From a virus (lineage: Duplodnaviria; Caudoviricetes): DNA of 64,000 nucleotides. Below, in pieces: positions 9,002 through 47,876 of the stretch. The stretch is taken from positions 1 to 64,000 of the IMG/VR virus record IMGVR_UViG_3300037419_001546, one strand, 5' to 3'. Positions within the stretch are counted from its first letter, which is position 1; each line of letters begins with the position of its first letter. The notes beneath the pieces were generated by a model that worked only from the letters and a program-made list of their open reading frames with translations, was not told where the DNA came from and made no database searches. The position numbers were made by a program, and so were the translations under genes.

Positions 9002-9921
9002 ACAACCACCCCGAACGGGCGCGTGAACCGCCGCGGAACCCACAGCTTCACCGCGGCCCCGGGATTCGCGTTCTCGACCCTGACCGTGAACCCGGCGTCG
9101 GGATCCTCGGGGCGCAGCCGCGCACGGATCGGATACAGGATGCCGTTGCTGTTCCACCGGTTCTGCACCGGCGCCCCGTTGGCCGCTACCAACGTCCGCT
9201 CGTCCGGATCGGAATCGATCGACAAGTCCTCACCAGGGAGCAGCGGCGGGATCCACTGCTCACGCTCGGCGTCATCAGCAGCGCGGTTATACGGCGGCGT
9301 GTTCTTCGCGTAGATCTTCAGGCCGCGGGACTTGTCCGAAACCGTCCAGTCGCCGGGCGCGGTGACGAAAGCCTTCCACCAGCATTCGACGTCGCCGCGG
9401 TTCTCGATCTGCCACGTCACCTCACCCGAGGTGCCCGACTCCAGCGTCCACTCGTATTCGAGTGGGTCGGCTTCCCAGAACGGGTTCTCGCACGCCGCGC
9501 TGATCCCCAGCGTCGAGTCGTGCGTGATGTACGGGTCTTTCTTTTCGTAGTCGGCTGATGCGTAGGCGATCGGCTCGGTGAGCAGCCGCATCTTCAGCCG
9601 GCGGACACCGTAGCTGGTGTGCGCTTCGAGTTCGAATTCGTCCTCGCCAACCATGCCCAGCGCCATCCGGAACCGGCTGTCGATATCGGCCCACACCAGC
9701 GGATTCGGGTGATAGATCTGCACCGAGAACACCGGATCCCGACGCTCGAACCGCATGCCCTGATAGCTGCTGCCAGTGGAGGTTTCGAGCCAGAAGGTTT
9801 TCGCCGGCGCGTCGATGAACTTCTGCGGGCCCGGCCGCAGCAGCACGCCCTCGGTTTCGTTCGTAAGGTCCCAGCGGGAGCCGTCGCATCCGTTGAGGTA
9901 GAGGGTGAGGTACTTGCTCAT
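8998..9921 (-). CDS. Distal tail protein (Dit)-like minor tail protein
   Basis: First gene after the tape measure; LxGCDGSxW start shared with 61495-62451. Confidence 0.8.
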   Translation of the reverse strand: MSKYLTLYLNGCDGSRWDLTNETEGVLLRPGPQKFIDAPAKTFWLETSTGSSYQGMRFERRDPVFSVQIYHPNPLVWADIDSRFRMALGMVGEDEFELEAHTSYGVRRLKMRLLTEPIAYASADYEKKDPYITHDSTLGISAACENPFWEADPLEYEWTLESGTSGEVTWQIENRGDVECWWKAFVTAPGDWTVSDKSRGLKIYAKNTPPYNRAADDAEREQWIPPLLPGEDLSIDSDPDERTLVAANGAPVQNRWNSNGILYPIRARLRPEDPDAGFTVRVENANPGAAVKLWVPRRFTRPFGVVV

Positions 9922-15057: not shown

Positions 15058-15969
15058 TCAGGAGACGGTGACCGCGCAGGTGCCGTTCAGGGCGCCGAGG
15101 GTGGCCGTGATGTTGGCGGTGCCAGCCGCGACCGCGGTGACCCGGCCGGCGGCATCGACGGTGGCCTTCGAGGTCGCCGACGAGGCGTAGGTGGCCTCGG
15201 CGGTACGGTCGAAGCCGTTGTCGTCGGTAACCGTGAGACGCGCGGTCTGACCCGCCGTCAAGGCCAGGGTCGGCGGGGTCACGAGGATGGAGGACGGCGC
15301 GCTCAGAAACCCGGCATCGTCCGCGATCAGGTCGAAACCGGAACCCGCGACACCGAAGTCGTACACGCCGCCTTCGGCGCCGAAGTCGTGGTCTTCGAAG
15401 ATCGTCAGGGTGTTGCCGAGCGGCAGTTCCTTGCCGGACTGGCCGTTCATCGCGCCCCGCTTCGAGGCCGCGACCTTCGGGAACATGAAGAACGGGTACA
15501 GGTCGCCGCTGGGGTTGACGTCCCGCGCGATCAGAAGGGCCGAGTAGTAGAAGACGTTCAGCTCGCTGGTCTTGCTGACTCGGAAGCCCTTGCCCGGCTG
15601 AGCGGAGGCTGCCGCCATCTGCACGTTGTGCCAGATCGACAGGTTGATCTTGCTCCACTCCTGCGCGATGTAGTCGATGGTCATCGACTCCCCGGTGGGC
15701 ACCACGCGTCGCGCCGCCGACGAGCCATAGCCCTCGATCGGGGACGTCTGCAGGTCGGGCGCCAGGCTGACCGCGGCGGCCTTCTGGACCTCACCCGCCG
15801 TCTGCCATCCGGCCGGCAGGGTCTGGATGACGCCGGACGAATCGCAGATGTCGGTCGGCATGTAGGGCGCGCCGGGCTGCCATTCGTGCAGGAACAGAGC
15901 CCAGTCGAGCGCGGAGAAGACGAGAGAATCGTTCTTGCCCTTCAGGGCGTGATACGTGGTAGCGGGCAT
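15058..15969 (-). CDS. Major tail protein with C-terminal Ig-like domain
   Basis: Position; C-terminal ILVTPPTLALTAGQT...ATYASS..KATVDAAGRVTAV Big_2-like domain. Confidence 0.85.
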   Translation of the reverse strand: MPATTYHALKGKNDSLVFSALDWALFLHEWQPGAPYMPTDICDSSGVIQTLPAGWQTAGEVQKAAAVSLAPDLQTSPIEGYGSSAARRVVPTGESMTIDYIAQEWSKINLSIWHNVQMAAASAQPGKGFRVSKTSELNVFYYSALLIARDVNPSGDLYPFFMFPKVAASKRGAMNGQSGKELPLGNTLTIFEDHDFGAEGGVYDFGVAGSGFDLIADDAGFLSAPSSILVTPPTLALTAGQTARLTVTDDNGFDRTAEATYASSATSKATVDAAGRVTAVAAGTANITATLGALNGTCAVTVS

Positions 15970-25644: not shown

Positions 25645-26313
25645 TCAGATGATGGGCACGGTGACGTCGCCTTGGTTGGCGAGCAGCATGCCGAAGTCGC
25701 GGAACGAGATGTACGCGCGGCCGTCGCGGCCCCAGCTGTCGGACCACGAGTTGAGGATGGTGAGCCGCTGGTGCTCGATATCGCCGCCGAGGACGAGGTA
25801 CTCGTGGCCGCCTTCGACCGGGCCGGTGGGTCGGATGACGCCGGCCGTGTTGGGGTCGAACATGTTCTTCGTCCACTCGGTGCCGACGATGACGGGTGAG
25901 TGCTGCAGCGCGAGCAGCAGGGCGTCGAGACCGAACGCGTGGTGGTAGGCGTCGAGGTAGCCGAGTTTGCGGCCGGCCTTGCAGACGGCGAGGCCCGACG
26001 AGCCGGTGTCGTCGGGCGGGTAGCTGCCGCTGATGCTGTCGAGTTTCGTTGCCGCCGAATAGAGTTCGACGGCGTTGTCCTCGATCAGGTAGCCGGTGCG
26101 GTGCCCTGCTTCGCCGAGCGCGGCTTGCGCGTAGTTGGTGTTGAGCCACTGGGCGAGCGCGTTGCCGGTGCACGAGCCGAGGTCGCCTTGGTCGAGCACG
26201 GGCGCCTGGTGGCTCCAGAGCACGGTCTTCGGTTTGGCCGCGGTGACGCGGGCCGGGTATTCACGGCTGCGTTCGTCGTGCTCGACGTGGCGGCCGAGGG
26301 CGTACGTGGTCAC
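25645..26313 (-). CDS. Papain-like (C1 family) cysteine peptidase
   Basis: DQGDLGSC (oxyanion Q and catalytic C), GGHEY (H), ILNSWSDSWG..G (N). Confidence 0.85.
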   Translation of the reverse strand: MTTYALGRHVEHDERSREYPARVTAAKPKTVLWSHQAPVLDQGDLGSCTGNALAQWLNTNYAQAALGEAGHRTGYLIEDNAVELYSAATKLDSISGSYPPDDTGSSGLAVCKAGRKLGYLDAYHHAFGLDALLLALQHSPVIVGTEWTKNMFDPNTAGVIRPTGPVEGGHEYLVLGGDIEHQRLTILNSWSDSWGRDGRAYISFRDFGMLLANQGDVTVPII

Positions 26314-26585
26314 TCGACGATCACCCAGTCCTCGGCGAGGAGATCGGTCTGCGATGCGAGCCACGGCACGATCGACCCCTGCGCGGTGCGCATGTCGATG
26401 TGCGGCTGGTATTCGACTGTCTCGCCGACCAGCTCGGGCGCGGCCGCGCCGAGCGGGCGATCCGCAGAGACGGTGATGTTCGAGCCGGGCACGAGGATCA
26501 GCCACATGCCGCGACCGTTCCATCCCTCGCGGGCGACGCGCTCGCCGTCGCGGAGCGCGCTCAGCGCGGCACCGAAGTCCATCAT
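26310..26585 (-). CDS. tad2: DUF2829 / Thoeris anti-defence 2 (Tad2) family sponge protein
   Basis: MDFGAAL.AL..G.RVAREGWNG.GMW and VPWLASQTDLLAEDW. Confidence 0.85.
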   Translation of the reverse strand: MMDFGAALSALRDGERVAREGWNGRGMWLILVPGSNITVSADRPLGAAAPELVGETVEYQPHIDMRTAQGSIVPWLASQTDLLAEDWVIVE

Positions 26586-26677
26586 CAGAACATCGCCTGG
26601 ACGACGCCGCCGATGAAGCAGAAGATGGCCTGCCAGGGCAGGACGTGCGCGACAGCGCTCAGGGTTTCCATGGTCAT
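26585..26677 (-). CDS. Small hydrophobic peptide (30 aa)
   Basis: RBS AAAGGA; stop abuts the Tad2 start. Confidence 0.45.
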   Translation of the reverse strand: MTMETLSAVAHVLPWQAIFCFIGGVVQAMF

Positions 26678-26841
26678 TCCTTTCGGCGGGCGCCGGGTGA
26701 AGGGTGTTGCAGCGCAGCAGACCCACCCGCGGTTGCTCTTGGCGGGTTTGCGGAGATGGGGGATCTCGTTGGGGCGCTTGCCGGGTGACCACACGCTGCA
26801 GGATGAATGCCCGGTTTGACGCTGCAAGTCTGGATACGAGT

Positions 26842-26877
26842 CAGCCCACCTCACAGCAGATGGGGTGAGGTGGGCTG
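26842..26877. terminator. 13-bp perfect hairpin downstream of the TROVE gene
   Basis: CAGCCCACCTCAC...GTGAGGTGGGCTG; no clear U-tract. Confidence 0.55.
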
Positions 26878-26931
26878 TCGTGGCTGCTGGCCGATTTTGG
26901 GGTCGGGTCGTCAGCAGCGGATTCGAGTGTC

Positions 26932-26992: not shown

Positions 26993-28564
26993 TCAGAACG
27001 GCCAGTCGCCGTCGCGGCCGCGCTCCAGCAGCGGGATCATGTCGAAGCCGCGGTCGGACAGGCCGCCGAAGGTGTGCCGGTACGGGCTGCCTGCGGTGTG
27101 CCCCAATCGATATCCGGCGAGGTTCCAGGTGTACAGCGGCACGGTGCCCGGGATCACGGTGCCCGGATCGCCGTAGCTGGAGTAGCTGGCCTGCTCGTCG
27201 GTGAGGATCACGACCCGTGCGTGGCGGTCGTAGGCGGCTCGAGCGACGCCGGCGGTGTTGGTACCGCCACCGATGAAGTACCCGCCGGACTTCCACCGTT
27301 CCACCGAGCGCAGCAGCGACTCTCCCGGCTCGATCGCGAACCGCAGCCCATCGTTCGAGTACGAGATGACGTCGGCGGTCTGGCAGCGGCGAGCGAGCGC
27401 CAGCCCGAATACAACCGCGGCGTCCCACCGGCGCAGCGTGCCGTCCTTGGAGAATCCGGCGTTCATCGATCCCGAAGTGTCGATGAGGATCAGCGTGCGG
27501 CCGTGCAGCTGCGGCACGTTCGCCAGCGACGCGTCGAGCGCCTGCTCGAGCGGGTATGCCCACCGCAGCGACGGCGCGGCCCGGTAGGCCGACAGGAAGC
27601 GCATCGGCAACTGGCGTGACCGGGCGACTTCGTCCGGGTCGGACAGGCGGGCCGCGACGGTGGCCGCGACGATGTCGGACACTCCGGCCTGGTCGAAGTT
27701 GCGCAAATTCCGCAGCAGCGCCATGTAACCCATCGACGGGATGATCGCTTCCCACCGGGCCGCGGTCCACGCGCCGAACGATGACAGCGCCTCCCACGTC
27801 ATGCCCGCGTCGGCGAGCGCCTGCGGCAGGCTGCCGTCTGCGGCCATCCGGTCGATGTCTTCGCTTGTGTGCCGCTTGAATTCGGCGTTGGCGCGCAGGG
27901 TCGACAGCGTGTCCGGGATGGCGAGGTCGTCGACGCCGATGCGTCGGCCGATGATGTAGTGGTACAGGTCGGCGATGACCTGCGCACCGCCGGGGTCGGG
28001 GTGGGTCAGCTGGATGACGTCAGCGAAGCGGACACCGCGAGTGTCGCTGTCCCACTTCAGGTAGCTGCGCTCGCGGTAGAGGCGGCGGGCAGCGTCGGCG
28101 ATGCCGCGCTTGACCGGCTTCGGCAGCTTCCGCCCGTAGTGGGCGTGCCAGTACGACAGCATTTCGCCGGGCTCGTCGGCGCGCTGCAGGACGGTCTTGA
28201 TGATGTCGCGGCCGCCGGATTCGCCGGCGTCGAGGCGCGCCTTGGCGGCCTCGGCGGCGAGCACGATCGGCGCTGAGCGCATGTTCGCTTCGGTGCGCAG
28301 CCAGTGCGCGAATCGGGTGAGCCAGTCGAAGTCGGTGAGCGCGACCTGCCGGACGAGAGCAGCGAACCGGTTGTCCCGGTCGCCGGCCTTCTCGTAGAAG
28401 GTGTCTTCGCCGACGAAGTTGGTTACGGCGAGGAGGAAGAGTTCGGACTGTGCGTCACGCGCGTAGCCGGGTCCACCTTCGAAAGTGGTGGCGGTGGCGG
28501 TGGTTTCGGTCCGGATCGGCCCATGCGCGGCAGGGCGGGTGGTGCCGGTTTTGAACTTGGCCAT
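26993..28564 (-). CDS. rsr: Ro60/Rsr TROVE-domain RNA-binding protein with vWA domain
   Basis: TFEGGPGY.RD..SELFLL, R.E.NMRS, PSMGYMALLRNLRN, LIDTSGSM (MIDAS), GGGT, VVILTDEQ; RBS AAGGGG. Confidence 0.93.
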   Translation of the reverse strand: MAKFKTGTTRPAAHGPIRTETTATATTFEGGPGYARDAQSELFLLAVTNFVGEDTFYEKAGDRDNRFAALVRQVALTDFDWLTRFAHWLRTEANMRSAPIVLAAEAAKARLDAGESGGRDIIKTVLQRADEPGEMLSYWHAHYGRKLPKPVKRGIADAARRLYRERSYLKWDSDTRGVRFADVIQLTHPDPGGAQVIADLYHYIIGRRIGVDDLAIPDTLSTLRANAEFKRHTSEDIDRMAADGSLPQALADAGMTWEALSSFGAWTAARWEAIIPSMGYMALLRNLRNFDQAGVSDIVAATVAARLSDPDEVARSRQLPMRFLSAYRAAPSLRWAYPLEQALDASLANVPQLHGRTLILIDTSGSMNAGFSKDGTLRRWDAAVVFGLALARRCQTADVISYSNDGLRFAIEPGESLLRSVERWKSGGYFIGGGTNTAGVARAAYDRHARVVILTDEQASYSSYGDPGTVIPGTVPLYTWNLAGYRLGHTAGSPYRHTFGGLSDRGFDMIPLLERGRDGDWPF

Positions 28565-28611
28565 GCTGTCCCCTTGGGTCAGGGGGTGCACGTGTTCGGA
28601 GTGTGGCGTGA

Positions 28612-28748
28612 AGGGCCTGAGAAAGAGGTCGACGGAGGCGTTTCGTCATTTGCTCTACCAGCTGAGCTACGGACAGTTGCCCGGCGGGACTCGAACCCGC
28701 GACACAATGATTAGCAGTGAAGTAACCCCCATCTGCGCACCAGGCCCT
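28612..28748 (-). ncRNA. Y RNA 1 (YrlA-like) with permuted tRNA-like domain
   Basis: Terminal stem AGGGCCUG/CAGGCCCU; GGUGCGCAG...GUCGACC; T-arm GCGGG-UUCGAGU-CCCGC, then closed acceptor hairpin, then D-arm GCUC-AGCUGGUA-GAGC; anticodon-stem strands UCAUU/AAUGA. Confidence 0.88.
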
Positions 28749-28761
28749 CACGCGAGGTGCT

Positions 28762-28901
28762 TACCGCCCGAGGAATAGTCGGTGGAAGTGACGAGGTGTC
28801 CTAGGCCGCTAGACGACGGAAGGCGTGCCCTCCGGCGGGATTCGAACCCGCGTTACCGCTTGTTGAGAGCGAAGTAACTCCTACCTGCGCACCGGGCGGT
28901 A
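28762..28901 (-). ncRNA. Y RNA 2 (YrlA-like) with permuted tRNA-Glu-like domain
   Basis: Terminal stem UACCGCCCG/CGGGCGGUA; GGUGCGCAG...CCGACU; T-arm GCGGG-UUCGAAU-CCCGC; 7-bp acceptor stem closed by CACG; D-arm GUC-UAGCGGCCUAG-GAC. Confidence 0.88.
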
Positions 28902-28920
28902 TTCACACTCTGAAGTTGTG

Positions 28921-28994
28921 CTCCCGAGAAATAAGCGCCTGAGGTACGGATCTCATCCCAAATGTGAAGTAGCCCCAGACTTCCGCACCGGAAG
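28921..28994 (-). ncRNA. Y RNA 3, minimal Y RNA without tRNA-like domain
   Basis: Same scaffold motifs (GGUGCG..AG, G-run then YUACUUC, U-rich bulge before the closing strand); stems CUUCCG/CGGGAG and CUGGGG/CCUCAG. Confidence 0.7.
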
Positions 28995-29001
28995 TGGCTT
29001 C

Positions 29002-29007
29002 ACTGTA
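29002..29007 (-). promoter_or_regulatory. Candidate -10 element TACAGT for the Y RNA-rsr transcript
   Basis: TANNNT located 7-8 nt upstream of the predicted Y RNA 3 5' end. Confidence 0.5.
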
Positions 29008-29016
29008 TACCGAGGG

Positions 29017-29337
29017 TCAGGCTCCAGCCGAATAGTCGCTCGACTGTTCGCTCACCCCGTAGGGGTTCTCGGCCGTGTGCTCGATACGGGTCCGGCAGCC
29101 CGGGCACATCTGCCCGCCCGGACCGACAGGCTGCTCCCGGCAGATCCCGCACAGGCGGGACGGGATCTCCTCGAGCTGCCCGCCGCCAACCTTCCAGCAC
29201 TCCCGCCGACCGTCAGGGTGGTCGAGGGTGACGATTTGACCGTTGAGTCCATCGAGGGGCGGTTGCTCGGCGAAGGTCTCGCGCAGTATCCAGTCGGTGC
29301 TCCAAATGCCCCAGACGGGCGCAGTGGTATCGCTCAT
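29017..29337 (-). CDS. Hypothetical protein with C-terminal CxxC..CxxC
   Basis: Coupled ORF; CGIC/CPGC. Confidence 0.55.
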   Translation of the reverse strand: MSDTTAPVWGIWSTDWILRETFAEQPPLDGLNGQIVTLDHPDGRRECWKVGGGQLEEIPSRLCGICREQPVGPGGQMCPGCRTRIEHTAENPYGVSEQSSDYSAGA

Positions 29338-29600
29338 GACTGCGATTCTGCCGCGCAGGCGATCCGGTGCAGCTGCTGCAGCTCGTCCAGGTCGCTCTCG
29401 CTGATCATGCGGCCGTCGTACACCACCTCCTGGCAGGAAGGGCACCCGAACAGCAACCAGCCGTTGCGGTGCACGAACCCCGGTTCGGCGGCCTCGGCTT
29501 CACGCATAGCCGTCGACTCGAACATTGCTTCCGCCTGGTCCGTGATCGGCTTCAGCGGCCGCGATCCTGGACCGTTCAGCCAGTAGTCACGCAGGCTCAT
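29334..29600 (-). CDS. Hypothetical protein
   Basis: Coupled ORF (ATGA overlaps). Confidence 0.55.
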   Translation of the reverse strand: MSLRDYWLNGPGSRPLKPITDQAEAMFESTAMREAEAAEPGFVHRNGWLLFGCPSCQEVVYDGRMISESDLDELQQLHRIACAAESQS

Positions 29601-32106: not shown

Positions 32107-32381
32107 CACGCCTCCGTTCCCGCGAGGACATCGGCGACGCGGTCGTATCGCTGCTGCGATGCGAGGCCGGCGACGAGGACTCGCGCCAGCGCGGTTGTGC
32201 GGGTGTAGACCGTGTCGTCGGGGTGCCGGATATGGATGCTGCACACGGCCGCGTAGGCGGGCGCGTTGGTGATGCTGATCCGTTCGACGCGCAGGATGCG
32301 CTCGTAGCCGCGGCGGGAGCGGTCGCGGAAGCAGTCGCCTGGGCGGATGGTGACGGTGTCGTCGATGGTGGCGACTCGCAT
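32106..32381 (-). CDS. Hypothetical protein
   Basis: Coupled ORF. Confidence 0.5.
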   Translation of the reverse strand: MRVATIDDTVTIRPGDCFRDRSRRGYERILRVERISITNAPAYAAVCSIHIRHPDDTVYTRTTALARVLVAGLASQQRYDRVADVLAGTEA

Positions 32382-32986
32382 CACGCCCCGCCGATCACGC
32401 GGTGGATGTCCTCGGCCCAAGCGTCGAGTTTGGCCATGTCCGAGAAGTCGCGGACCTTGATCTTGGCGCGGCGGCCGTCGGGGTGGTGCCAGACGATGCC
32501 CTCGTAGAGCGGGCTGGCGTCCCATTCGGCCATCAGGTCGCGCAGCGATTCGAACCCGGTTGGGATGTCGGGCAGGATGATCGCGCCGTGGCGGTGCAGG
32601 CCGTGGCCGTAGAACTTGTGCGGATTGCCGTTGATCTTCGGGCCGCACAGCTCGTATGTGCCGGGCCCGAGGATCTCGTGACGGTCGAGGGCAGCGGCGT
32701 GGATCTTGGCGAATCCGGACTGCCGCATCGGTTCCCATCCGACGCGTTTGCCGGTCCCCGGGTCGTGCTGCACCTGGACGAAATTGTCGGGTTCGGTCTT
32801 GCCACGCTTCACTTCGCGGCGCGCCCACCAGTCGCCGTGTTCGTCGAGCATGGTGCAGACGCCGTCGAGTTTCGCGGTGGCGGTGCCTTCGCCTGCGAGC
32901 ACCCAGTGGCAGTCGGGGTGCACTTCGGGGAGCAGGCGGCGCATGTCGTCGGGGTTGCGCTGGAACAGGGTTGGGATTTTGCGCAT
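32381..32986 (-). CDS. Minimal ATP-dependent RNA ligase-like nucleotidyltransferase (DUF5565/RLIG1-like)
   Basis: Motif I AKLDG, motif III YELCGPKINGNP, motif IV YEGIVW, motif V AKIK. Confidence 0.7.
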   Translation of the reverse strand: MRKIPTLFQRNPDDMRRLLPEVHPDCHWVLAGEGTATAKLDGVCTMLDEHGDWWARREVKRGKTEPDNFVQVQHDPGTGKRVGWEPMRQSGFAKIHAAALDRHEILGPGTYELCGPKINGNPHKFYGHGLHRHGAIILPDIPTGFESLRDLMAEWDASPLYEGIVWHHPDGRRAKIKVRDFSDMAKLDAWAEDIHRVIGGA

Positions 32987-37393: not shown

Positions 37394-38428
37394 CTAGCTG
37401 TCGGTCGCTTCGGACTCGGCGGCGCGGATCTTGTCGAGCACCGCTTCGAGGTCGCCCTGGTCGACGAGGACGTCGCGGGCCTTCGATCCCTGCGCGGGCC
37501 CGACGACACCGAGGTCTTCGAGCCGGTTGAGCAGATAGACGGCCTTCGCGAAACCGATCCGCATGCGGCGCTGCAGCATTGACGACGAGCCGAACTGGGA
37601 GCTGATCACCAGCTCGGCCGCGGCGACGAGCATCGCCGTGGTGCCGAGCACGTGGGCGGTGGACAGCGCCTCGTCCAGGTCGACCGCCTCAGTGGTGGTC
37701 GGGTTGCGGCGGTCGACGAACGAGTGCGCGACGATGCCGGGCAGCCGCTGAGTCCAGCCCTCGGCCCAGGCCTTCGCCCGGGCCAGATAGTCGTCGTTCA
37801 TCCGGCGCGGGCTGACCGCGCCGAGGAAGCTGTCACCGCAACGCACCAGCAGCGCGCGGCCGTCGGCGCGGGCTTCGAGGTTGAGCGGTTCGCCGTAGGC
37901 CTTGCCGGCCTGCTGGAACCGGGCCAGGTAGTCGCCGGAGACGGCGATCCCGCCAGCGAGCAGCGCGAAGTTGCCTTGATGCTGGCGGTGGATCAGCCAC
38001 GGGATGCCGCCGAGGGTGGGTTCGTTGGCGAGCCGCGGGACGCGCAGGGCGTGGCCGACGATGTCGAAGCCGGAGCAGTCGGAGAAGGTGACCTCGCTGT
38101 CGGCGACCTCGATGCGCAGCAGGTAGTCGGGCTGCCCGTCGTGAGCGTCCCTGCCTGCCTTGAAGATTCGCAGGATCTTCGCGATGTCGTCGGGCGCGAA
38201 CTCGACGATCAGGCCGGGCTCGTAGTCACAGTCGCGTTCTTTCCAGATGCTGACGATCGCGAGCGCCGCGGTGAACCGGTCGGACGCGGTGACGGCGACG
38301 TTGCCGTCGGCGAACAGCATCCGCACCCGGTGCAGGCCGGCGTCTTCCTTGTCGGGGGTGGCGTGGACGCTCACCGCGGTGAGTGCGTGCCGGAGATCGG
38401 CGGTGCCAACGATGATGGTGGCGGTCAT
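37394..38428 (-). CDS. Beta-clamp-like N-terminus fused to an FtsK gamma domain
   Basis: C-terminal AAELVISSQFGSSSMLQRRMRIGF.KA..L...LE..GVVGP..GSK.RDVL; N-terminal L..AL.AV.......L......VTASDRF. Confidence 0.7.
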   Translation of the reverse strand: MTATIIVGTADLRHALTAVSVHATPDKEDAGLHRVRMLFADGNVAVTASDRFTAALAIVSIWKERDCDYEPGLIVEFAPDDIAKILRIFKAGRDAHDGQPDYLLRIEVADSEVTFSDCSGFDIVGHALRVPRLANEPTLGGIPWLIHRQHQGNFALLAGGIAVSGDYLARFQQAGKAYGEPLNLEARADGRALLVRCGDSFLGAVSPRRMNDDYLARAKAWAEGWTQRLPGIVAHSFVDRRNPTTTEAVDLDEALSTAHVLGTTAMLVAAAELVISSQFGSSSMLQRRMRIGFAKAVYLLNRLEDLGVVGPAQGSKARDVLVDQGDLEAVLDKIRAAESEATDS

Positions 38429-46967: not shown

Positions 46968-47876
46968 ATGAGCAACATTGTCGAAATTCGTTACTCACGC
47001 TCAAAAGGTCAACTAAAACCGATCACTATGACCGGTAACTGTATGTTGTCCGTTCCGCGCCAGTGGACCGGGCCCATCGAAAAGTTCGAAGAGTTCCTAC
47101 GAGCCATCGGCCGACCCAAATCTACTAGACGACTACGTATCTACCATCTCCGGCGGTTCGCCGTAGACCATCGCCGCACCCATCCATGGGAAGTGACCGA
47201 GGACAACCTCGTCACATGGATGGCAAGCCGCGACTGGGCGCCCGAAACCCGCCGATCCTATCGAGCGAGTCTGCGAGGGTTCTACTCCTGGGCCCTCGCC
47301 AAGGGACACATCACCGCCGACCCGTCCTACAACCTCCCCGCCCCCACACCGCCGCCGGCCAAGCCGCGGCCCGCGCCCGACGAAGTCGTCGACTGCGGTC
47401 TGCGGTCCGTCGACCTGCGGGTACGGGTCGCGGTCATGATCTTCGCGTTTACGGGTATGCGTAGACATGAGGCGGCGAAGATGCACACCGACGATCTGAT
47501 CTCACGCTCGGACGGCTGGTACGTCCGAGTCGTCGGAAAGGGCGGCCGGGTGCGGCTGATCCCGGTCGATGATCTGTTCGCTTCGGCGATCCGGTCGATG
47601 CCGCCGGGGTTCATCTTTCCGGGCAAGATCGACGGGCACATCAGCGCGAACCACCTCGGCAAGATCGTCTCCCGGGACCTGCCCGGCGACTGGACGGCGC
47701 ACACGCTGCGCCACCGGTTCGCGAGCCTGGCGTACTCCATCGAGCGCGACATTCGTGCCGTGCAGGAGCTGCTGGGACACGCCAAGGTAACCACCACTCA
47801 GATCTACACTTTCGTTCCGGAAGAAAGCTTGCGCCGCGCCGCGGCGGGCGCGAGACGCGGCCTCACCGCCGCGTAA
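46968..47876 (+). CDS. int: Tyrosine integrase (true start may be 47028 or 47043)
   Basis: R (GMRRHE), K (VGKGG), HxxR (HTLRHRF), H (LGHA), Y (TTQIY); ends GLTAA. Confidence 0.93.
   Translation: MSNIVEIRYSRSKGQLKPITMTGNCMLSVPRQWTGPIEKFEEFLRAIGRPKSTRRLRIYHLRRFAVDHRRTHPWEVTEDNLVTWMASRDWAPETRRSYRASLRGFYSWALAKGHITADPSYNLPAPTPPPAKPRPAPDEVVDCGLRSVDLRVRVAVMIFAFTGMRRHEAAKMHTDDLISRSDGWYVRVVGKGGRVRLIPVDDLFASAIRSMPPGFIFPGKIDGHISANHLGKIVSRDLPGDWTAHTLRHRFASLAYSIERDIRAVQELLGHAKVTTTQIYTFVPEESLRRAAAGARRGLTAA

What the first reader, a model, noticed from the sequence alone, without database searches (positions are those of the whole stretch)
26993..29007. Prophage Ro60 with a tandem array of three Y RNAs on one transcript
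Three ncRNAs lie back to back, ending 48 nt before the rsr start. All share GGUGCG..AG, a G-run followed by (G/C)UUACUUC or CUACUUC, and a pyrimidine bulge before the closing strand, and each has its own terminal stem. Ro60 with YrlA-type tRNA-mimic Y RNAs is known in bacteria and some phages. A three-member array with distinct payloads (Asn/Ile-type tRNA mimic, Glu-type mimic, none) inside an anti-defence island suggests a modular system in which one Ro ring is loaded with different adaptors or decoys (inference).
Basis: partly seen in the sequence, partly recalled or inferred. Interest (0 to 1): 0.85.

Follow-up and report, generated by a model that had tools for sequence, protein, structure and literature searches.

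The report
Phage Ro60 gene with three Y RNAs
A temperate actinobacterial phage carries a Ro60 ring-protein gene preceded by three small Y-type RNA genes, two of them tRNA look-alikes; the arrangement is real, but it is an ordinary, mid-sized example of one that is common beside Ro60 genes in actinobacteria and their phages.

Summary
On the minus strand, three RNA modules lie head to tail: Y3 28995-28920, Y2 28899-28764 and Y1 28747-28613. Y1 ends 48 nt before the ATG (28564) of a TROVE+vWA Ro60 gene. The shared 5' word (GGTGCG, 9-12 nt, YTACTTC) occurs three times in the 74.9-kb record, against 0 expected by chance.

Y1 and Y2 are YrlA-type tRNA mimics (T arm, closed acceptor hairpin, D arm). 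The arms of Y2 best match tRNA-Glu. Y3 is a short hairpin type.

The same grammar precedes rsr in 75 of 81 actinobacterial loci and 37 of 64 viral loci, usually as 2-4 modules. Covariation supports the stems strongly (93-96% paired; slid controls 34-62%).

A conserved -10 box lies just before the first module, and no terminator precedes the end of rsr, so one transcript is likely. Expression and Ro60 binding are untested.

Two Y RNAs cut from one precursor upstream of rsr are already known in M. smegmatis, and Y RNAs are known in 22 phages (Chen 2014). This scan has also logged such arrays on other DNA, with up to ten units. I class this as a new member of a known kind. The "Asn/Ile" label for Y1 is not supported. 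The "anti-defence island" rests on one neighbouring Tad2-like gene.

The parts
29027..29032 (-). -35-like hexamer TTCGGC, inside the 3' end of the upstream Zn-ribbon ORF
   Evidence: Read from the sequence. TTCGGG sits at the same 19-nt spacing in sister virus L082. Inference.
29002..29007 (-). -10-like hexamer TACAGT (TANNNT); predicted transcription start near 28995
   Evidence: TACAGT/TACATT is invariant in 4 related loci. TANNNT lies 2-12 nt before the first module in 46/111 loci, against 4/152 later modules and 34/4000 random sites. The consensus sigma-70 scan found nothing.
28920..28995 (-). Y3: short Y-RNA-like module with no tRNA domain (terminal stem, GGUGCGGAAG, 8-bp inner helix, CUACUUC loop, small hairpin, pyrimidine bulge)
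   Evidence: Model R1 gives 52.2 bits, E 1.9e-8. The class is aligned in A2/A4 with covarying stems. U-A in the window is replaced by C-G in L082/L003 in the inner helix. An alternative 5' hairpin, ACUUCCG/CGGAAGU, is possible.
28900..28919 (-). Inter-module linker containing ACAACUUCA; candidate processing site
   Evidence: Invariant in 4 related loci. ACAACT follows 50/152 non-last modules across loci. The function is inferred.
28764..28899 (-). Y2: YrlA-type module. V-arm hairpin 28871-28857, T arm 28851-28835, closed 7-bp acceptor hairpin 28834-28817, Glu-like D arm 28814-28798
   Evidence: Partial Rfam YrlA hit of 19.2 bits. It sits in alignment A1 with covariation. Its arms match tRNA-Glu(UUC) and tRNA-Glu(CUC) genes in Nocardia genome G001. 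ARAGORN's 'tRNA-Leu(caa)' at 28827-28899 is an artefact of this module.
28613..28747 (-). Y1: YrlA-type module. T arm 28700-28684, closed 5-bp acceptor hairpin 28683-28670, D arm 28667-28652
   Evidence: Rfam YrlA RF02553 gives 47.5 bits, E 2.1e-9, full-length match, below the gathering score of 69. It sits in alignment A1 with covariation.
28565..28612 (-). Leader with a hairpin that pairs the Shine-Dalgarno sequence (AAGGGG) and the AUG
   Evidence: Fold of -15.4 kcal/mol, z -1.1. Conserved in L082. Its role is inferred.
26993..28564 (-). rsr: Ro60 homologue, 523 aa from ATG 28564 (the listed ORF starts at GTG 28591)
   Evidence: Pfam TROVE E 7.8e-17; VWA_2 E 5.8e-4, below cut-off. PHROG 850 E 1.6e-52. 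Thermus phage phiLo Ro60, PDB 9KOP/9L5Y, E 2.4e-31, with the DTSGS MIDAS motif aligned.
26836..26881 (-). Strong hairpin about 110 nt after the rsr stop; likely terminator of the unit
   Evidence: -29.3 kcal/mol, z -4.5, 0/200 shuffles as stable. There is no T-run, which is usual in high-GC actinobacteria (my own knowledge).

Best explanation
This is a phage-borne Ro60 ribonucleoprotein operon of the actinobacterial type. A sigma-A-like promoter (-10 TACAGT, 29007-29002) probably drives one precursor that carries Y3, Y2, Y1 and then the rsr mRNA, ending at a strong hairpin after rsr. The three RNAs are probably cut apart in the single-stranded linkers (inferred; shown only for the two-RNA precursor of M. 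smegmatis). Each RNA pairs its 5' and 3' ends into the same 'handle'. The handle has a 6-7 bp terminal stem, a conserved 5' strand GGU[G]CG(C/A)AG opposite GAC plus an 8-nt pyrimidine bulge, an 8-bp covarying helix, and a YUACUUC internal loop. By analogy with metazoan, Deinococcus and phage phiLo Y RNAs, this bulged helix is the Ro60 docking site (inferred). The distal 'heads' differ. Y1 is a generic class-I tRNA elbow. Y2 is a tRNA-Glu-like elbow with a variable-arm hairpin and a 7-bp closed acceptor stem, which could make it an RNase P substrate as in M. smegmatis YrlA (inferred). Y3 is a short hairpin. The most likely function is that one Ro60 ring is loaded with alternative Y RNAs, which gate its cavity and tether it to different host partners (PNPase and tRNA-binding enzymes by precedent). 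This would redirect RNA decay or repair during infection or lysogeny, possibly together with the phage RNA-ligase-like gene 3.8 kb upstream (speculative).
For: The shared motif occurs 3 times against 0 expected. Rfam YrlA matches Y1 full-length at E 2e-9 and the T/acceptor/D part of Y2. Synteny: the same grammar lies upstream of rsr on the same strand in 75/81 actinobacterial loci (14, 24, 24, 12 and 1 loci with 1-5 modules) and in 37/64 viral loci. Model R1 finds 178 modules in 100 sources. Covariation, structure-blind (MAFFT + RNAalifold on 77 tRNA-like modules): 95.6% of cells paired, 421 double-change cells against 119 in shuffles, slid controls 39-49%. Covariation, CM alignment of 141 distinct modules: 93.1% paired, 345 against 86, slid controls 34-62%. 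Single promoter: a TANNNT box precedes the first module in 46/111 loci against 4/152 later modules; there is no terminator between the RNAs and rsr and a strong hairpin after rsr. Precedent: M. smegmatis YrlA and YrlB lie upstream of rsr, are bound by Rsr and are processed from one precursor, and Y RNAs were found in 22 phages (PMC4201824). Phage phiLo Ro60 binds two upstream Yrl RNAs and host PNPase (PMC12135203).
Against: No expression or Ro60-binding data exist for this locus. The one RNA run found covered only 99 nt of rsr, and elsewhere only tRNA-like fragments from other organisms. The Rfam YrlA gathering score is not reached (47.5 and 19.2 against 69 bits). The published 5'-strand motif GNCGAAN0-1G is present only as a variant (GUGCGCAG or GUGCGGAAG). 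Single-sequence folds are no more stable than shuffles. The docking helix of Y3 is imperfect (C where most modules have A opposite U3), and a 7-bp alternative hairpin could hide its GGUGCG. Terminal-stem pairing was a selection criterion of my parser, so those columns are biased; the inner helix and the tRNA arms were not selected. The partner proteins are unknown.
Confidence: 0.8

Rival explanations
1. The three modules are not released as free RNAs. They form a structured 5' leader of the rsr mRNA, and Ro60 binds its own leader to autoregulate translation or stability.
For: The modules are contiguous with rsr with no terminator between them. A hairpin pairs the Shine-Dalgarno sequence and the AUG just after Y1. 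Y3 has an alternative 5' hairpin that could act as a switch.
Against: In M. smegmatis the equivalent upstream RNAs accumulate as discrete Rsr-bound species cut from a precursor (PMC4201824). Conserved single-stranded linkers lie between modules. In Salmonella the Y RNAs lie 3' of rsr, so a leader role is not general. The two roles are not exclusive.
Confidence: 0.1
2. The tRNA-like heads act mainly as decoys or sponges for host tRNA-recognising defence or modification enzymes, with Ro60 only stabilising them.
For: The arms of Y2 closely mimic tRNA-Glu. The heads change quickly between sister phages while Ro60 stays 88% identical. Neighbours include a Tad2-like anti-Thoeris domain and an RNA-ligase-like gene.
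Against: The same arrays sit beside rsr in many loci drawn from bacterial genome assemblies, though I did not check how many of these are prophages. The modules have no anticodon loop and no free acceptor end, so they cannot be substrates of anticodon nucleases or acceptor-end toxins. There is no direct evidence.
Confidence: 0.07
3. The modules are decayed or permuted phage tRNA genes with no link to Ro60, and the shared motifs are leftovers of duplication.
For: ARAGORN calls a tRNA-Leu(caa) at 28827-28899. A comparable module in Gordonia phage VanLee is annotated tRNA-Arg(tct).
Against: The acceptor stems are closed hairpins and the order is T arm, acceptor, D arm. The 'anticodon arm' that ARAGORN uses is the variable-arm hairpin, and its 'acceptor' is the handle strand. 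The handle covaries across more than 140 modules and is always next to rsr. Y3 has no tRNA part at all.
Confidence: 0.03

Closest known systems
Mycobacterium smegmatis YrlA + YrlB upstream of rsr (Chen et al. 2014, PMC4201824)
   Same: Actinobacterial. Several Y RNAs lie directly 5' of rsr on the same strand and are processed from one precursor. One has a full tRNA-like domain (T arm, closed acceptor, D arm) and another is reduced. A 7-bp acceptor stem allows RNase P cleavage, and Y2 here also has 7 bp.
   Different: There are three modules here rather than two. The order is short, Glu-like, generic. The locus is on a temperate phage. Nothing here has been tested experimentally.
Rfam YrlA (RF02553); Salmonella YrlA structure PDB 6CU1
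   Same: A handle formed by the 5' and 3' ends plus a tRNA-like elbow. Y1 matches all 114 model positions (E 2e-9).
   Different: The score is below gathering (47.5 against 69 bits). The handle word is GGUGCGCAG...YUACUUC rather than GNCGAAN0-1G. Salmonella encodes its Y RNAs 3' of rsr within an RtcR-controlled repair operon.
Thermus phage phiLo Ro60 with Yrl1/Yrl2 (PMC12135203; PDB 9KOP, 9L5Y)
   Same: A phage Ro60 with Y-like RNAs immediately upstream. It is the closest solved homologue of this protein (E 2.4e-31). It has been shown to bind its RNAs and host PNPase.
   Different: It has two RNAs, described as having a 5'-3' stem flanking a large bulge with a CGAA motif. A tRNA-like head is not mentioned in the passages I read. 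The host phylum differs.
Deinococcus radiodurans Yrn2-tRNAAsp-Yrn1 precursor and the Rsr-Y RNA-PNPase (RYPER) machine
   Same: A polycistronic Y RNA precursor next to rsr, with a Y RNA tethering Ro60 to an effector.
   Different: A different Y RNA lineage (metazoan-like helix, different arm order). It is chromosomal and UV-induced.
Larger Y RNA arrays beside phage Ro60 logged earlier in this scan (five to ten units)
   Same: The same design: a shared handle, different heads, directly upstream of rsr in actinobacterial phages.
   Different: Those arrays are longer. This one is a mid-sized example. Those notes are unreviewed AI reports.

Membership tests
Ro60 / Rsr (TROVE family) | TROVE (HEAT-repeat ring) domain | tested here: met
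   PF05731 E 7.8e-17, 62 bits against a cut-off of 23. PHROG 850 E 1.6e-52.
Ro60 / Rsr (TROVE family) | C-terminal vWA domain with MIDAS motif DxSxS | tested here: met
   VWA_2 E 5.8e-4, 20.9 bits, below the cut-off of 27. In the phiLo alignment, query DTSGS lies opposite chain DVSGS within the conserved block.
Ro60 / Rsr (TROVE family) | Sequence homology to a solved Ro60 | tested here: met
   phiLo Ro60 9KOP/9L5Y, E 2.4e-31, two stretches covering residues 25-519.
YrlA (Rfam RF02553) | Score at or above the curated gathering threshold (69 bits) | tested here: not met
   No hit at gathering. Y1 scores 47.5 bits (E 2.1e-9) and Y2 19.2 bits (E 0.31); Y3 is not matched.
YrlA (Rfam RF02553) | Within 4 kb of rsr and on the same strand (criterion of Chen 2014) | tested here: met
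   All three modules lie 48-431 nt upstream of the rsr ATG on the minus strand.
YrlA (Rfam RF02553) | tRNA-like domain in the order T arm, closed acceptor-like hairpin, D arm | tested here: met
   Met for Y1 and Y2: arms are supported by covariation in 77 relatives, and the arms match real tRNA genes. Not met for Y3, which has no tRNA part.
YrlA (Rfam RF02553) | Conserved 5'-strand motif GNCGAAN0-1G in the Ro60-binding stem | tested here: inconclusive
   The window has GUGCGCAG (Y1, Y2) and GUGCGGAAG (Y3). Among 173 related modules, the two letters after GGUGCG are CA in 83 and AA in at least 28, the latter giving GCGAAG. I read this as a lineage variant of the CGAA motif, not an exact match.
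Y RNA (functional definition) | Bound and stabilised by Ro60 | not testable with these tools
   This needs EMSA or RIP. Only analogy and co-location are available.
Y RNA (functional definition) | Expressed as a discrete small RNA | tested here: inconclusive
   One metatranscriptome run held a small share of the stretch's sampled words. Its contigs covered 99 nt of rsr, and elsewhere only short pieces that mostly continue into unrelated sequence.
YrlB-type short Y RNA | Rsr-bound hairpin RNA without a full tRNA domain, encoded beside YrlA | tested here: inconclusive
   Y3 fits the layout, and its class recurs as the first module in 57 of 112 loci. There is no sequence family to test against, and binding is untested.
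Genuine tRNA gene | Open 7-bp acceptor stem with a free 3' end, plus an anticodon arm | tested here: not met
   The acceptor stems are closed hairpins. ARAGORN's tRNA-Leu(caa) call is built from the handle strand, the variable-arm hairpin and the T arm.

The most novel reading that the evidence does not exclude
The heads of these Y RNAs are exchangeable cassettes that mimic particular tRNA isotypes (Glu here; a class II-like D arm at the same position in a sister phage whose Ro60 is 88% identical; other D-arm types in other genera). A phage can then re-aim one Ro60 ring at isotype-specific tRNA-binding host proteins, as part of an RNA-level counter-defence set with the nearby RNA ligase and Tad2-like genes.
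Probability: 0.2. Interest if true: 0.65.

Novelty: new member of a known kind. Interest (0 to 1): 0.3.

Why it matters
The locus adds a clean, well-delimited example of a phage Ro60 operon with three different Y RNAs. The comparison made here shows that multi-RNA arrays are the rule beside actinobacterial rsr genes. They share one handle and a usual order: a short module first and a generic tRNA-like module last. This is useful for annotation. Rfam's YrlA model misses most of these RNAs at its threshold, and tRNA finders mis-call some of them as tRNAs (tRNA-Leu here, tRNA-Arg in Gordonia phage VanLee). It also gives a tractable system for asking what the different heads recruit. It does not change the current picture of Ro60 biology.

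Tried and rejected
1. Rfam at gathering thresholds found nothing in the window. Only the E-value scan showed YrlA.

2. The consensus sigma-70 promoter scan found no site. The promoter call rests on the actinobacterial TANNNT box and its conservation.

3. My first fixed-offset covariation count gave only 72% pairing, because the bulge length varies. I replaced it with MAFFT/RNAalifold and a covariance model.

4. RNAalifold on the MAFFT alignment of the short class recovered only the terminal stem. The inner helix needed the model-based alignment, which leans towards the given structure.

5. Model R1 does not detect Y1 and Y2 significantly (18.5 and 13.7 bits), because long heads are penalised as insertions.

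6. Expression: one RNA run held a small share of the sampled words. Laying it showed a 99-nt contig piece inside rsr, and elsewhere only short tRNA-arm-like pieces that continue into unrelated sequence. That gives no verdict on expression.

7. The isotype of the sister phage's Y2 head: only the T arm matched Nocardia tRNAs. 'Class II-like' is therefore a reading by eye.

8. The Annual Review on bacterial Ro60 (PMC10870794) and the supplementary tables of Chen 2014 were not available. I could not check whether multi-hit loci were already tabulated.

9. A literature search for Y RNAs + Ro60 + Streptomyces returned nothing.
Full report
**What is there.** The window is part of a 74.9-kb IMG/VR virus record. 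It has 67% G+C. Terminase, HNH, peptidase and RusA genes lie on the minus strand, and a tyrosine integrase lies at 46968-47876. It is therefore a temperate phage of an actinobacterium. The nearest Ro60 relatives are in Nocardia (68-70% identity) and in one other viral contig (88%). Whether the phage is integrated cannot be told from this record.

**The protein.** ORF 26993-28591 (minus strand) carries a TROVE domain (E 7.8e-17) and a weak vWA hit. It matches PHROG 850. Its closest solved relative is the Ro60 of Thermus phage phiLo (E 2.4e-31), with the DxSxS MIDAS motif conserved. Relatives' matches begin at residue 10 of the ORF, and an AAGGGGA Shine-Dalgarno sequence precedes ATG 28564. The protein is most likely 523 aa.

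**The three modules.** Upstream on the same strand lie Y3 (28995-28920), Y2 (28899-28764) and Y1 (28747-28613). All three share this grammar:
- a 6-7 bp terminal stem;
- GGUGCG followed by (C/G)A(A)G;
- a G-rich 8-bp helix;
- (U/C)UACUUC;
- a variable head;
- the return strand of the helix;
- GAC or GC;
- an 8-9 nt pyrimidine-rich bulge;
- the closing strand.

The word GGTGCG-N9-12-YTACTTC occurs three times in the whole record, against none expected by chance.

**The heads.**
- **Y1** matches all 114 positions of Rfam YrlA (47.5 bits, E 2e-9, below the gathering score of 69). It has a T arm, a closed 5-bp acceptor hairpin and a D arm.
- **Y2** has a variable-arm hairpin, a T arm, a closed 7-bp acceptor hairpin and a D arm. 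In a Nocardia genome, both its T and D arms hit the tRNA-Glu(UUC) gene and its D arm hits tRNA-Glu(CUC). The 'Glu-type' label holds.
- The best match for Y1 is a tRNA with anticodon CAU, at weak E-values, with other isotypes close behind. It is a generic class-I mimic, and 'Asn/Ile-type' is not supported.
- ARAGORN's tRNA-Leu(caa) at 28827-28899 is an artefact assembled from the handle strand, the variable-arm hairpin and the T arm.
- **Y3** has no tRNA part.

**Are the modules real?** Single-sequence folds are not more stable than shuffles. The case is comparative.
- I fetched 80 actinobacterial and 68 viral loci that encode relatives of this Ro60.
- A strict parser for the grammar finds modules upstream of rsr in 75 of 81 genome loci (counting the window). 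Of these, 14, 24, 24, 12 and 1 loci have 1, 2, 3, 4 and 5 modules. It also finds them in 37 of 64 viral loci.
- A MAFFT alignment of 77 tRNA-like modules, folded blind by RNAalifold, returns the terminal stem, the inner helix, the T arm, the acceptor hairpin and the D arm. In it, 95.6% of cells are paired, with 421 double-change cells against 119 in shuffles; slid controls pair at 39-49%.
- A covariance model built on the short class finds 178 modules in 100 sources, all upstream of rsr. It includes Y3 at E 2e-8. On 141 distinct modules it gives 93.1% pairing, with 345 double changes against 86 in shuffles.
- Two caveats apply. Terminal-stem pairing was a criterion of my parser, and the model-based alignment leans towards its structure. 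The inner helix and the tRNA arms in the MAFFT alignment are free of both biases.

**One transcript?**
- A TANNNT box (TACAGT, 29007-29002) lies 6 nt before the stem of Y3. It is invariant in four related loci, with a TTCGGC-like -35 box at 19-nt spacing.
- Across loci, such a box precedes the first module in 46/111 cases, against 4/152 later modules and under 1% of random sites.
- No terminator-like site lies between the RNAs and rsr.
- A very stable hairpin follows rsr (z -4.5).
- With the M. smegmatis precedent, co-transcription and processing are likely but not shown.
- The linker after Y3 (ACAACUUCA) is invariant in close relatives and recurs after a third of non-last modules. It is a candidate processing site.

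**Comparison with what is known.**
- Chen et al. 2014 (PMC4201824) showed that M. smegmatis YrlA and YrlB lie upstream of rsr, are bound by Rsr and come from one precursor. They also showed that YrlA, with its 7-bp acceptor stem, is cut by RNase P, and that YrlA-like RNAs lie near Ro60 in 254 bacteria and 22 phages. They proposed that extra Y RNAs let Ro60 form complexes with more partners.
- Phage phiLo Ro60 binds two upstream Yrl RNAs and host PNPase (PMC12135203).
- A Listeria phage has three abundant RNAs upstream of an Rsr-like gene (PMC12282133).
- This scan has logged many such arrays on other DNA, with up to ten units. Those are unreviewed notes, but they agree with my own counts.
- The window's order, short then Glu-like then generic, recurs in other genera. 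Examples are L034, and L041 with one extra module.
- A three-RNA array on a phage is therefore a new member of a known kind, not a new design.

**What is mildly new.** The handle of this lineage (GGUGCG(C/A)AG...YUACUUC with a pyrimidine bulge) differs from the published GNCGAAN0-1G motif and escapes Rfam's threshold. The heads also turn over quickly. In the sister virus L082 (Ro60 88% identical) the three-module layout is kept. However, its Y1 keeps only a T arm, and its Y2 has a 10-bp acceptor hairpin and a different D arm. This fits a cassette-like evolution of the heads, but says nothing yet about function.

**Context.** Directly downstream of rsr lie a Tad2-like domain protein (PF11195, E 1.6e-25) and a papain-like peptidase. 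An RNA-ligase-like gene lies 3.8 kb upstream. This is suggestive of counter-defence or RNA repair, but it is thin support for calling the region an 'anti-defence island'.

**Verdict.** The identity as a Ro60 gene with three Y-type RNAs is well supported. Co-transcription is likely. Binding, processing and the adaptor or decoy role are inferred. Interest is modest.

Noticed in passing
L180:989-1060 (Gordonia phage VanLee, NC_073474.1 65454-65525): The annotated tRNA-Arg(tct) about 225 nt upstream of the Ro-like gene looks like a mis-called Y RNA module (handle strand + variable-arm hairpin + T arm). At least four (G/C)UUACUUC-containing modules lie between 689 and 1220 of the locus, using a handle word GCUGCCC(G/A)G in place of GGUGCG.
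   Followed up: partly
window 28900-28919 (-); many loci: The inter-module linker ACAACUU(C/G)A is conserved across genera and shares ACUUC with the internal-loop motif YUACUUC. It could be a processing site or a protein-binding word.
   Followed up: partly
window 28565-28612 (-): A hairpin pairs the rsr Shine-Dalgarno sequence and the AUG (CCCCU/AGGGG plus CGUGC/GCAUG). It is conserved in L082. Other loci have longer hairpins at the same place. It may control translation or act as a processing signal.
   Followed up: partly
window 28975-28994 (-): The first 17 nt of Y3 can form a perfect 7-bp hairpin (ACUUCCG-GUG-CGGAAGU; -13.1 kcal/mol for the 35-nt 5' end, z -2.0). This would hide the GGUGCG word and competes with the Y fold.
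   Followed up: partly
window 26310-26792 (-) and 25645-26523 (-): A Tad2-like (Thoeris anti-defence 2) domain protein and a papain-like peptidase (PHROG 16701) lie immediately downstream of rsr.
   Followed up: partly
window 32381-32986 (-): A 201-aa RNA-ligase-like protein (PHROG 14301 E 2.5e-46; Pfam RLIG1 E 7e-7) lies 3.8 kb upstream of rsr on the same strand. I did not search the record for RtcB.
   Followed up: partly
window 29017-29445 (-): A Cys-rich (zinc-ribbon-like) ORF ends at 29017, and the predicted Y RNA promoter lies in its last 15 nt. Similar Cys-rich ORFs precede the arrays in L034 and L045.
   Followed up: no
L003 and L020 (Nocardia sp. CA-290969: 39-kb contig and chromosome): The same rsr/Y RNA locus occurs on a 39-kb contig and in the 7.9-Mb chromosome of one assembly. 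This may be a prophage present both integrated and as a free copy, or two copies.
   Followed up: no
window 9147-9244 (-) and 15135-15227 (+): ARAGORN calls two over-long (93-98 nt) tRNA-Arg genes inside the structural-gene region. They are probably false positives.
   Followed up: no
window 37394-38428 (-): A 344-aa protein with a C-terminal FtsK gamma domain (E 1.2e-18) lies among the replication genes.
   Followed up: no
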